Shown here: piece by piece, positions 26,755 through 29,700 of the stretch
Layout: each line of letters opens with the position of its first letter
Position numbering within the stretch: the first letter of the stretch is position 1
Assembly: GCF_024502345.1 (NCBI RefSeq)
Contig: NZ_JALDNN010000001.1
Origin: Escherichia coli
GTDB lineage: Bacteria; Pseudomonadota; Gammaproteobacteria; Enterobacterales; Enterobacteriaceae
Direction: 5' to 3' (one strand)
Length of the DNA: 64,000 nt
Position numbers: made by a program

Positions 26755-29700
26755 TGATTCAGGAGTGCGTTATGGACAGTCTCAATCTTAATAAACATAT
26801 TTCCGGCCAGTTCAACGCCGAACTGGAAAGTATCCGCACGCAGGTGATGACCATGGGCGGCATGGTGGAGCAGCAGCTTTCTGATGCAATCACCGCGATG
26901 CATAACCAGGACAGCGATCTGGCGAAGCGCGTCATCGAAGGCGACAAGAACGTCAACATGATGGAAGTGGCGATCGATGAAGCTTGCGTGCGCATTATCG
27001 CCAAACGTCAGCCGACGGCGAGCGACCTGCGTCTGGTTATGGTGATCAGTAAAACCATTGCCGAGCTGGAGCGTATTGGCGACGTGGCGGACAAAATCTG
27101 CCGTACTGCGCTGGAGAAATTCTCCCAGCAGCATCAGCCGTTGCTGGTAAGTCTGGAGTCGCTGGGCCGTCATACCATCCAGATGCTGCACGACGTGCTG
27201 GACGCGTTCGCGCGGATGGACATTGACGAAGCGGTACGTATTTATCGTGAAGATAAAAAAGTCGATCAGGAATACGAAGGTATTGTTCGTCAACTGATGA
27301 CCTACATGATGGAAGATTCGCGTACCATTCCGAGCGTACTTACTGCGCTGTTCTGCGCGCGTTCTATCGAACGTATTGGCGACCGCTGCCAGAATATTTG
27401 TGAGTTTATCTTCTACTACGTGAAGGGGCAGGATTTCCGTCACGTCGGTGGCGATGAGCTGGATAAACTGCTGGCGGGGAAAGATAGCGACAAATAATTC
27501 ACCAGACAAATCCCAATAACTTAATTATTGGGATTTGTTATATATAACTTTATAAATTCCTAAAATTACACAAAGTTAATAACTGCGAGCATGGTCATAT
27601 TTTTATCAATAGCGCGGTGATGCTGCCAACTTACTGATTTAGTGTATGATGGTGTTTTTGAGGTGCTCCAGTGGCTTCTGTTTCTATCAGCTGTCCCTCC
27701 TGTTCAGCTACTGACGGGGTGGTGCGTAACGGCAAAAGCACCGCCGGACATCAGCGCTATCTCTGCTCTCACTGCCGTAAAACATGGCAACTGCAGTTCA
27801 CTTACACCGCTTCTCAACCCGGTACGCACCAGAAAATCATTGATATGGCCATGAATGGCGTTGGATGCCGGGCAACCGCCCGCATTATGGGCGTTGGCCT
27901 CAACACGATTTTCCGCCATTTAAAAAACTCAGGCCGCAGTCGGTAACCTCGCGCATACAGCCGGGCAGTGACGTCATCGTCTGCGCGGAAATGGACGAAC
28001 AGTGGGGATACGTCGGGGCTAAATCGCGCCAGCGCTGGCTGTTTTACGCGTATGACAGGCTCCGGAAGACGGTTGTTGCGCACGTATTCGGTGAACGCAC
28101 TATGGCGACGCTGGGGCGTCTTATGAGCCTGCTGTCACCCTTTGACGTGGTGATATGGATGACGGATGGCTGGCCGCTGTATGAATCCCGCCTGAAGGGA
28201 AAGCTGCACGTAATCAGCAAGCGATATACGCAGCGAATTGAGCGGCATAACCTGAATCTGAGGCAGCACCTGGCACGGCTGGGACGGAAGTCGCTGTCGT
28301 TCTCAAAATCGGTGGAGCTGCATGACAAAGTCATCGGGCATTATCTGAACATAAAACACTATCAATAAGTTGGAGTCATTACCAGAGAAACAATGGAAGT
28401 ACCTGTATTATTACCAAAAGAACCAGCGGTTCTTTTGCGAAGAATATGTAGAGGACAAGAAACAGAACACCAATTAACGGTCCTAAAACCGCAAAATAAA
28501 GTCCGTGATGTATTACCCGACGTGAAACAGACATATCAAACTCCCTTTACTTACCTTTGAGCGCCAATTTAAGCGGGGTAAGTGAAGGGAGTGTGAAGAA
28601 CTATGCCGTAATATCCCAACCACGCGCTTTCCACAGTTCCGGTAACTGCGAAAGATGGGTAAAGGTGGTGACTTTCGGGTGAACGATCGGCTTATTGTGC
28701 GGGTCGGCGCAGAAGTAGAACACTTCCATACCTGCGTCGATACCAGATTGCGCACCGGCAACTGAGTCATCAACCAGAATGCAGTTTTCTACATTTACAT
28801 TCATCGCTTTTGCCGCATGGAACATTAACGCCGGGTCTGGCTTCCAGCGCTGAATATCGTAGCCGCTGAACAGTTTATCCGGGAAGTAGTGCAACATATT
28901 CAGCTTGCCCATAGAATGCTGCATTTTGTTATTTGGGCCGTTAGATACCACACACATTGGCGCAGTGATCGCTGACAGGAGCGCTCCAGCCCCTTCGATG
29001 GCTTCCAGTTCTGAATCGAACAGCCGAGCGACTTCTGCACGGTAAACGTGTTCAGCTTCTGTTTTCGCTAACGTAACACCATGTTCAAGGGAAACAATAT
29101 CGATAATTTCGTACAGTTTTACACCTTTGAAACGTTTGAATACCTCTTCAGGATCGAGCGTAATACCAAATTCCTGAAACATCGTTACATATGCGCGGGA
29201 GCAAATGACTTCACTGTCGACCAGCGTACCGTCGCAGTCGAAAAATACCGCTTCTATCCGGGACATGCCTTTCCTTTTTAATCAGTTTAACGTTTTCGTA
29301 GAGCCGATTTGCGCAACGCAATCGTTGCCGTATAAGTAAATCCAATAAAAAAGTCTCTCACAAACGCGCCTATTGTCGCATTTTGGTATACGATAGCGAC
29401 GGATTTTCCCTCCTTGTTCGGAAATAGATAATGAGTCATCAACATACCACCCAGACTTCTGGTCAGGGGATGCTGGAACGCGTTTTTAAACTGCGCGAAC
29501 ATGGTACTACGGCACGAACTGAAGTGATTGCCGGGTTCACCACCTTCCTGACGATGGTCTACATCGTATTTGTTAACCCACAAATTCTGGGCGTTGCTGG
29601 CATGGACACCAGTGCCGTCTTCGTAACAACCTGTCTGATTGCTGCTTTCGGTAGCATTATGATGGGATTGTTTGCAAACCTTCCGGTGGCGCTGGCTCCT

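What the first reader, a model, noticed from the sequence alone, without database searches (positions are those of the whole stretch)
28384..28600. Orphan 56-codon ORF created directly at the IS1 boundary (probable truncated cbrB 3' end)
An open frame runs from inside the IS1 right end (in-frame TAA at 28366-28368) to TGA at 28558-28560, with an ATG at 28393 only 9 bp past the IS1 terminus. It converges on yieH with a 40-bp gap. By synteny it is most likely the C-terminal remnant of cbrB left by the deletion. IS1 ends can drive outward transcription, so a truncated peptide could be expressed.
Basis: inference. Interest (0 to 1): 0.3.

Follow-up and report, generated by a model that had tools for sequence, protein, structure and literature searches.

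The report
Antisense ORF over truncated cbrB start
The 55-codon ORF next to the IS1 element is a chance reading frame on the wrong strand; what really sits there is the first third of the membrane-protein gene cbrB, cut off by an ordinary IS1-bounded 9-kb deletion that removed the bgl sugar operon and its neighbours.

Summary
The ORF exists exactly where stated (ATG 28393, TGA 28558-28560, in-frame TAA 28366-28368, IS1 end at 28383, 40 bp from yieH). Its interpretation is wrong. cbrB lies on the minus strand, co-directional with and downstream of yieH. The 217 bp between IS1 and yieH hold the yieH-cbrB intergenic region (cre-tag motif, Shine-Dalgarno) and cbrB codons 1-50. These are 100% identical to the 157-aa CbrB allele. 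They run into IS1, which adds Trp and a TAA stop, giving a 51-aa CbrB'. The + ORF is antisense to this. It has no similarity to CbrB. It is present unchanged in intact cbrB loci, with its own stop 18 nt upstream of the ATG, so IS1 did not create it. It lacks its ATG in K-12-type alleles and its stop in B2 alleles. All four substitutions seen between two alleles change its amino acids, while three of the four are silent in cbrB. IS1 (27616-28383) has no target duplication. Its left junction equals a simple IS1 insertion upstream of bglG found in other strains. Relative to strain NCTC9064, 9,082 bp are missing (bglGFBH-yieL-yieK-cbrC and two-thirds of cbrB). This is ordinary IS-mediated gene decay, and interest is low. 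One side observation: the same cbrB nucleotide is an IS1 boundary in several lineages and in both IS1 orientations.

The parts
27616..28383 (+). IS1 copy B. It is a complete 768-bp element with insA at 27671-27946, insB frame to the TAA at 28366-28368, and an A6C frameshift motif near 27921. It has no target-site duplication (left flank CAATAGCGC, right flank AGAGAAACA).
   Evidence: It is identical at 768/768 positions to IS1 copy A at 20702-21469, which does have a 9-bp duplication, AACAAGGTG. The IRL promoter CTGCCA-16-TATGAT was picked up at 27623-27650.
27607..27615 (.). CAATAGCGC, the left copy of the 9-bp target duplication from the original IS1 insertion upstream of bglG (bglR region). 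It lies 118 bp after the phoU stop and 167 bp before the bglG ATG in the intact reference.
   Evidence: Strain ECCTRSRTH03 has IS1 at the same site and in the same orientation, with CAATAGCGC on both sides and an intact bglG.
28384..28534 (-). cbrB' remnant: the first 151 nt of cbrB (codons 1-50 plus 1 nt). The reading frame continues into the IS1 right inverted repeat (Trp51, then TAA at 28379-28381), so the ORF is 28379-28534 and encodes 51 aa.
   Evidence: NCBIfam PRK09823 positions 1-53, E=8.8e-19. A precomputed Pfam PF26516 CBRB hit is recorded on the identical product. Residues 1-50 are 100% identical to the 157-aa CbrB of strains 720632 and NCTC9064. The peptide is hydrophobic, with GRAVY 1.64.
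28535..28600 (-). Intact yieH-cbrB intergenic region. It holds the cbrB Shine-Dalgarno (AAGGGAG, 28541-28547) and a cre-tag motif, TTCACactcccTTCAC (28582-28597).
   Evidence: motif and coordinates. (SD duplex -7.9 kcal/mol). The cre-tag consensus TTCACnnnnnnTTCAC is quoted in PMC3660660. cbrB is described as a member of the CreBC regulon in PMC3599342.
28393..28560 (+). The reported 55-codon ORF. It is a non-coding antisense frame over cbrB codons 1-47, the cbrB start region and 26 nt of the intergenic region.
   Evidence: No similarity to CbrB and no family above threshold. It pre-exists in intact loci. Its ATG is TTG in K-12 and TUM2367, and its stop is lost in ATCC 11775-type alleles. Its SD duplex is only -2.9 kcal/mol.
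28601..29266 (-). yieH (6-phosphogluconate phosphatase), intact, upstream of and co-directional with cbrB'.
   Evidence: NCBIfam PRK10563, E=8.6e-133, full length. Reference annotations.
26772..27497 (+). phoU, the last gene before the IS1. It is followed by a 15-bp stem hairpin at 27505-27539 that is probably the pst-phoU terminator.
   Evidence: RNA fold of 27498-27560 gives -18.7 kcal/mol. The simple terminator scan did not list it.

Best explanation
The 217 bp between IS1 and yieH are the promoter-proximal third of the cbrB gene (formerly yieI), which encodes an inner-membrane protein of the CreBC regulon. The gene reads on the minus strand away from yieH and is cut off by an IS1-bounded deletion. 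An IS1 first sat in the phoU-bglG intergenic region, the bglR area known for IS1/IS5 insertions. Then 9,082 bp starting exactly at its right end were lost: the rest of bglR, bglG, bglF, bglB, bglH, yieL, yieK, cbrC and cbrB codons 51-157. This could have happened in one step, by intramolecular IS1 transposition into cbrB (an adjacent deletion). It could also have happened in two steps, by a second IS1 insertion at that cbrB site followed by recombination between the two direct copies. The result is a cbrB' pseudogene that keeps its cre-tag motif, Shine-Dalgarno and ATG, and would encode 50 native residues plus Trp before a stop supplied by the IS1 inverted repeat. The 55-codon + strand ORF is merely the antisense frame of this remnant. 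It was there before the IS1 arrived, is not conserved as a frame, and is not a gene. Shown: strand, identity, deletion limits, absence of a target duplication, pre-existence of the + ORF. Inferred: the order and mechanism of events, and that the cbrB promoter still fires into IS1.
For: Strand and synteny: cbrB is annotated on the yieH strand, 66 bp downstream of yieH, in K-12, 720632 and NCTC9064. Identity: the minus ORF matches CbrB residues 1-50 at 100% for the 157-aa allele. Against K-12 CbrB it is 90% identical, E=5e-27. It matches NCBIfam PRK09823 positions 1-53, E=8.8e-19. Deletion: the window flanks map to NCTC9064 locus positions 2918 and 12001, so 9,082 bp are missing. BLAST of 25000-30000 against five references gives the same breakpoints. 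IS1: complete, with no target duplication, while the identical copy A has one. The left junction is identical to a simple IS1 insertion with a CAATAGCGC duplication and intact bglG in ECCTRSRTH03. Analogous IS1-bounded truncations occur in complete genomes and are annotated by PGAP as 'cbrB, incomplete, missing C-terminus' in EC07 and as an incomplete hypothetical protein in HeN100, both on the yieH strand. A65EC and Z503 carry phoU-IS1-cbrB deletions with other end points. Literature: IS insertions and deletions in bglHIK-yieJI are frequent (PMC2646131), and IS1/IS5 insert within about 200 bp upstream of the bgl promoter (PMC11043490). Against the + ORF being coding: no alignment to CbrB; the same ORF sits in the intact locus with its own upstream stop; the start is missing in K-12-type alleles and the stop in B2 alleles; 4 of 4 nucleotide differences between the window and ATCC 11775 are non-synonymous in the + frame, against 1 of 4 in the cbrB frame; the SD is weak; no promoter-like site was found; there was no Rfam hit. 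Gene callers picked the minus-strand 51-aa product on the identical junction. They called the + ORF peptide on only one contig, a 648-bp fragment.
Against: No expression data were available, so transcription and translation of either strand are inferred. One-step and two-step deletion cannot be separated from the sequence. The ancestral state is taken from a close relative (NCTC9064, 100% identical over 28384-31400), not from the true ancestor. Some strains with the same cbrB allele lack cbrC, in which case the deletion would be 8,457 bp. The substitution test rests on only four differences. A few annotation pipelines do list the + ORF as a hypothetical protein.
Confidence: 0.93

Rival explanations
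1. One reading: the + strand ORF is the C-terminal remnant of CbrB, possibly expressed from outward IS1 transcription.
For: The ORF is real as a sequence and begins 9 bp after the IS1 end. The DNA is derived from cbrB. IS1 has a promoter in its left inverted repeat whose transcripts run towards the right end.
Against: cbrB is on the opposite strand. The peptide gives no alignment to CbrB at E<=100. The CbrB C-terminal coding DNA is inside the deleted 9,082 bp. No promoter-like site was found at the junction. The IS1 promoter is reported as weak in a lacZ reporter (PMC11043490). The SD is weak, at -2.9 kcal/mol.
Confidence: 0.01
2. The + ORF is an independent, real small gene or antisense-encoded peptide overlapping the cbrB start, whether or not IS1 is present.
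For: The frame is open (53-59 codons from the first start codon) in all six alleles examined. A few annotations list it as a hypothetical protein, for example BBM80404.1 and CST47743.1.
Against: The ATG is replaced by TTG in K-12 and TUM2367, and the stop shifts in B2 alleles. All four substitutions change the + frame amino acids, while three are silent in cbrB. There are no homologues or families. PGAP never annotates it in the loci examined. ORFs of this size are abundant by chance.
Confidence: 0.03
3. Mechanistic rival within the main explanation. The deletion arose in two steps: an independent IS1 insertion at cbrB nt 151, then RecA-dependent recombination with the direct IS1 copy in bglR. 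This contrasts with a one-step IS1 adjacent deletion.
For: The same cbrB nucleotide carries an IS1 end in other lineages and in both orientations (L010 has IRL; L011 has IRR). At least 35 draft contigs end at cbrB nt 150-152 in several flank haplotypes. This suggests insertions at this site happen on their own. The two IS1 copies in the window are identical and directly oriented, so substrates for recombination exist.
Against: No simple insertion with both junctions at this site was found. There were 0 single-piece hits in 5,426 complete genomes and 0 hits in metagenome contigs for the predicted other-side junction. IS1 is known from textbook knowledge to make adjacent deletions. A65EC, Z503, EC07 and HeN100 show IS1-bounded deletions with various end points. 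The two routes leave the same sequence.
Confidence: 0.4

Closest known systems
IS-mediated insertions and deletions in the bgl-yieIJ (cbrBC) island of E. coli and Shigella (Sankar et al. 2009, PMC2646131)
   Same: It is the same locus between phoU and yieH. Insertion elements and deletions are reported as frequent there (10 of 33 type Ia strains), and bgl is disrupted by IS1 in S. flexneri.
   Different: This particular junction (bglR IS1 joined to cbrB nt 151) is not described in the text I could read. Their Figure S2 is not held.
IS1-bounded cbrB truncations in complete E. coli genomes (EC07, HeN100, A65EC, Z503)
   Same: An IS1 abuts a 5' cbrB remnant next to an intact yieH, and upstream genes are missing. 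PGAP annotates the remnant as incomplete and missing its C-terminus, on the yieH strand.
   Different: The end points differ: 180, 273, about 459 and about 472 nt of cbrB are retained, against 151 here. The left end points lie in bglB, in bglH or at other bglR positions. IS1 is in the opposite orientation in EC07 and HeN100. The IS1 isoforms differ (94-95% identity).
[quoted passage not shown] 1981, as cited in PMC11043490)
   Same: The left IS1 junction lies in the phoU-bglG intergenic region. It is at the same site and orientation as simple insertions with intact bglG in other strains.
   Different: Here the operon that such an insertion would activate has been deleted.
IS-derived outward or hybrid promoters
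   Same: An IS1 end lies directly upstream of an ORF.
   Different: No -35/-10 combination was found across this junction, and the ORF is not a gene.

Membership tests
CbrB (NCBIfam NF007334 / PRK09823; Pfam PF26516 CBRB) | Sequence match to the family profile | tested here: met
   The minus-strand 51-aa ORF matches profile positions 1-53 of 160, E=8.8e-19, 68.3 bits. It is 100% identical to residues 1-50 of the 157-aa CbrB. A precomputed PF26516 hit is recorded on the identical product. The + ORF gives no hit.
CbrB (NCBIfam NF007334 / PRK09823; Pfam PF26516 CBRB) | Full-length protein (about 155-157 aa; score above the curated cut-off of 177 bits) | tested here: not met
   Only 50 native codons remain and the score of 68.3 is below 177. 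It is a truncated pseudogene, not an intact member.
CbrB (NCBIfam NF007334 / PRK09823; Pfam PF26516 CBRB) | Genomic position: 66 bp downstream of yieH on the same strand | tested here: met
   The yieH stop is at 28601 and the cbrB ATG at 28534. The spacing is identical in K-12, 720632 and NCTC9064.
IS1 family insertion sequence | 768-bp element with imperfect terminal inverted repeats of about 23 bp, and insA/insB' with an A6C frameshift site | tested here: met
   Element at 27616-28383. The inverted repeats match at 18 of 23 positions. insA is 91 aa and the insB frame 167 aa, with TTAAAAAAC present.
IS1 family insertion sequence | 9-bp target-site duplication flanking a simple insertion | tested here: not met
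   Copy B has CAATAGCGC on one side and AGAGAAACA on the other. This is expected if the flank on one side was deleted. Copy A at 20702-21469 has AACAAGGTG on both sides.
IS-mediated adjacent deletion (or recombination between two IS copies) | One original junction kept; deletion starts exactly at the IS end; a contiguous segment is missing relative to intact relatives | tested here: met
   The left junction equals a simple insertion in ECCTRSRTH03. NCTC9064 positions 2919-12000 are missing.
IS-mediated adjacent deletion (or recombination between two IS copies) | Direct demonstration of a one-step intramolecular transposition | not testable with these tools
   The one-step and two-step routes leave identical sequence.
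CreBC-regulated promoter | cre tag TTCACnnnnnnTTCAC upstream of the gene | tested here: met
   TTCACACTCCCTTCAC at 28597-28582 on the minus strand. The consensus is quoted in PMC3660660.
CreBC-regulated promoter | CreB-dependent transcription in this strain | not testable with these tools
   Induction of cbrB is known only from K-12 (PMC3599342).
Protein-coding small ORF (the + strand ORF) | Conserved start and stop, purifying selection, a ribosome-binding site, homologues | tested here: not met
   The start is lost in K-12-type alleles and the stop is shifted in B2 alleles. Four of four substitutions are non-synonymous. The SD duplex is -2.9 kcal/mol. No homologues or families were found.

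The most novel reading that the evidence does not exclude
cbrB nucleotide 151 (window 28383|28384) may be a site-specific IS1 target hot spot, hit independently in several E. coli and Shigella lineages and in both IS1 orientations. The surviving CreBC-controlled promoter may then drive a 51-aa single-helix CbrB' peptide and antisense transcription into the IS1 right end. That could damp this IS1 copy or have an envelope phenotype.
Probability: 0.15. Interest if true: 0.3.

Novelty: already known. Interest (0 to 1): 0.06.

Why it matters
It matters little biologically. This is routine IS1-driven gene decay at a locus already known to be unstable, and the strain simply lacks bgl, yieLK, cbrC and a functional cbrB. 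The practical value is for annotation. The remnant should be labelled as a cbrB pseudogene (5' fragment, minus strand), not as a new ORF or a C-terminal fragment. The case also shows why strand must be checked before a synteny-based assignment. The recurrence of one exact IS1 boundary in several lineages is a small lead on IS1 target choice.

Tried and rejected
- **Rfam.** A scan of 27300-29500 at E<=1 found no RNA family.
- **Promoter and terminator scan.** Nothing was found on either strand in 28200-28750. The IS1 IRL promoter was found in 27400-27760, but the phoU hairpin was missed by the simple pattern; I folded it separately.
- **Pfam.** This copy gave no hit even for full-length CbrB, because PF26516 is not in the local copy. 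For the + ORF it gave only sub-threshold noise.
- **Exact junction in complete E. coli genomes.** There was no contiguous hit with either the IS1 right end or the left end. The apparent 100% hits were two separate pieces joined by the tool.
- **Metagenome scans.** There were 0 hits for the predicted other-side junction of a simple insertion and 0 hits for the window junction in either orientation.
- **Species-representative genomes.** There were 0 hits, so the source organism was not identified this way.
- **Literature.** Cariss et al. 2008 (PMC2395042), on CreBC promoter sequences, is not held.
- **Rejected reading: IS1 supplies the ORF's open frame.** The intact locus has its own in-frame stop 18 nt upstream of the ATG.
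- **Rejected reading: the L010 IRL junction is an assembly artefact.** The contig's k-mers span the flank and the distinguishing IS1 bases, and three samples share the contig. This remains an inference.

Full report
**Observation.**
- A complete 768-bp IS1 occupies 27616-28383.
- The TAA at 28366-28368 is the insB stop codon.
- An ATG at 28393 opens a 55-codon frame that ends at the TGA at 28558-28560.
- This is 40 bp before the stop codon of yieH (28601-29266, minus strand; NCBIfam PRK10563, E=8.6e-133).

An ORF of this size is not remarkable.
- The window holds 257 ORFs of at least 55 codons.
- About 16 non-genic ones lie in 26000-31000 alone.

**What the DNA is.**
A search of 28385-28700 against 5,426 complete E. 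coli genomes found the stretch in 5,027 of them. In about 4,260 the match covers at least 80%, and it lies under features annotated cbrB and yieH. In K-12, 720632 and NCTC9064, cbrB sits on the same strand as yieH, with its ATG 66 bp after the yieH stop.

In window coordinates this puts the cbrB start at 28534 on the minus strand.
- The minus-strand ORF 28534 to 28379 reads MSVSRRVIHHGLYFAVLGPLIGVLFLVLYIFFAKEPLVLLVIIQVLPLFLW.
- Residues 1-50 are identical to the 157-aa CbrB of 720632 and NCTC9064.
- The ORF is 90% identical to K-12 CbrB, E=5e-27.
- It matches positions 1-53 of the NCBIfam CbrB model, E=8.8e-19.
- Codon 51 (TGG) and the TAA stop are supplied by the IS1 right inverted repeat.

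The + ORF peptide gives no alignment with CbrB and hits no family above threshold. The remnant is therefore the 5' third of cbrB on the minus strand. The reported ORF is its antisense frame.

**The + ORF is not a product of the IS1 and not a gene.**
- In the intact NCTC9064 locus, the same ATG-to-TGA frame exists with a native in-frame stop 18 nt upstream of the ATG.
- Across six alleles, the ATG is TTG in K-12 and TUM2367, and the TGA is replaced by TGC in ATCC 11775-type alleles.
- The four nucleotide differences between the window and ATCC 11775 within cbrB codons 1-50 change one CbrB residue but four residues of the + frame.
- Its Shine-Dalgarno pairing is -2.9 kcal/mol, against -7.9 for cbrB.
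- No sigma-70-like site or terminator was found on either strand in 28200-28750, and there is no Rfam hit.
- On contigs with the identical junction, gene callers chose the minus-strand 51-aa product.
- The + peptide was called on only one contig, a 648-bp fragment that carries intact cbrB DNA. A few other annotations of close variants list it as a hypothetical protein.

**The rearrangement.**
- IS1 copy B has no target duplication: CAATAGCGC on the left, AGAGAAACA on the right.
- The identical copy A (20702-21469) is flanked by AACAAGGTG on both sides.
- The left junction, 118 bp after phoU, is the same as in ECCTRSRTH03. There, an IS1 of another isoform sits between two CAATAGCGC copies and is followed by an intact bglG.
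- This is the region upstream of the bgl promoter where IS1 and IS5 are known to insert (PMC11043490).
- Mapping both flanks on NCTC9064, which is 100% identical to the window over 28384-31400, shows that locus positions 2919-12000 are missing.
- The missing 9,082 bp comprise the rest of bglR, bglGFBH, yieL, yieK, cbrC and cbrB codons 51-157.
- If the ancestor lacked cbrC, as 720632 does, the loss would be 8,457 bp.

**Mechanism.**
The signature has three parts: one original junction kept, the deletion starting at the IS end, and no duplication. It fits an IS1 adjacent deletion by intramolecular transposition. It fits equally well a recombination between the bglR IS1 and a second, directly oriented IS1 inserted at cbrB nt 151. 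The sequence cannot separate the two routes. I rate them about 55:45.

**What remains functional (inferred).**
- The intergenic region keeps a perfect cre-tag motif, TTCACactcccTTCAC, at 28597-28582, and the cbrB ribosome-binding site.
- The motif is the CreB-associated signature (PMC3660660).
- cbrB is strongly induced with creD, cbrA and cbrC in K-12 (PMC3599342).
- Transcription from this promoter, and any read-through from yieH, would produce a 51-aa hydrophobic peptide (GRAVY 1.64) and run antisense into IS1.
- On the + strand, a 15-bp-stem hairpin after phoU (27505-27539, -18.7 kcal/mol) probably stops pst-phoU transcripts before IS1. That would leave only IS1's own promoter, which is reported as weak (PMC11043490).

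**Comparison with what is known.**
- Sankar et al. (PMC2646131) describe the phoU-yieH island as polymorphic, with frequent IS insertions and deletions in bglHIK-yieJI.
- Complete genomes show parallel cases, with the cbrB remnants annotated on the yieH strand as incomplete proteins missing the C-terminus:
  - A65EC and Z503: phoU-IS1-cbrB.
  - EC07: bglB'-IS1-cbrB', with 180 nt of cbrB retained.
  - HeN100: bglH'-IS1-cbrB', with 273 nt retained.
  - STEC276: an IS1 between cbrC and cbrB.
- The exact window junction is in no complete E. coli genome, no JGI metagenome contig and no species-representative genome.
- It does occur in draft assemblies. GCA_050022275.1 is 100% identical to the window over 3,225 bp.

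**Side observation.**
- SRR33792177 has the IS1 right end at the same nucleotide in a flank that is 7% diverged from the window.
- ERR1623592 (three samples share the contig) has the IS1 left end there, meaning the opposite orientation.
[quoted passage not shown] The eight inspected end at cbrB nt 150-152.
- Those contigs fall in at least five flank haplotypes, 90-100% identical to the window.
- Homologous recombination cannot change which IS end abuts a flank, so at least two independent IS1 strand transfers hit this phosphodiester.
- The predicted other junction of a simple insertion was not found.
- This suggests a target hot spot but does not prove it.

**Verdict.**
The ORF is a real string of codons but not a real feature. 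The underlying feature is a cbrB 5' pseudogene fragment produced by ordinary IS1 activity at a locus known for such events. Interest is low.

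Noticed in passing
window 28383|28384; loci L009, L010, L011, L020-L027: The same cbrB nucleotide is an IS1 boundary in other lineages. L011 has the IS1 right end in a flank 7% diverged from the window. L010 (ERR1623592, 3 samples) has the IS1 left end, meaning the opposite orientation. [quoted passage not shown] This may be an IS1 target hot spot. Two contigs (L020, L025) end with the native T at nt 152, so a neighbouring site may also be used.
   Followed up: partly
L004 (A65EC), L005 (Z503), L016 (EC07), L017 (HeN100), L018 (STEC276): These are independent IS1-bounded truncations or insertions at cbrB in complete E. coli genomes, with different end points and IS1 isoforms. 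My queries contained the cbrB 5' end, so deletions reaching yieH would not have been seen (ascertainment bias).
   Followed up: partly
window 20702-21469: A second IS1, 768/768 identical to the one at 27616-28383 and in the same orientation, has a 9-bp duplication AACAAGGTG. It is inserted at the 3' end of the long-polar-fimbria usher gene lpfC-O113, just before lpfD.
   Followed up: partly
window 16816-17389: lpfA-O113 appears split into two overlapping ORFs (16816-17097 and 17042-17389). In strain KCJ3K291 it is a single 573-nt gene, so a frameshift is likely here.
   Followed up: no
window 28700-30000 (yieH-adeP): This core-genome stretch exists in two deeply diverged haplotypes in E. coli. 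The window is about 87% identical to 720632, A65EC and Z503, but 100% identical to NCTC9064 and to O103 and O121 strains. The adjacent cbrB 5' end is identical in both groups, so there is a recombination boundary near the start of yieH.
   Followed up: no
window 27599-27615 and 28370-28392: Both IS1-associated target sites carry a short match to the sequence just inside the IS1 right end (TATCAATAAG). The site upstream of bglG has TATCAATA, and the intact cbrB site has ACAATAAG. This could be chance, or it could relate to the reported preference of IS1 for targets resembling its ends (recalled from the older literature, not re-read).
   Followed up: no
window 1-25000: The left part of the window runs viaA-asnA-asnC-mioC-mnmG-rsmG-atpIBEFHAGDC-glmU-glmS-lpfABCD-pstS. 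The chromosomal replication origin, between mioC and mnmG, should therefore lie near 2350-2720.
   Followed up: no
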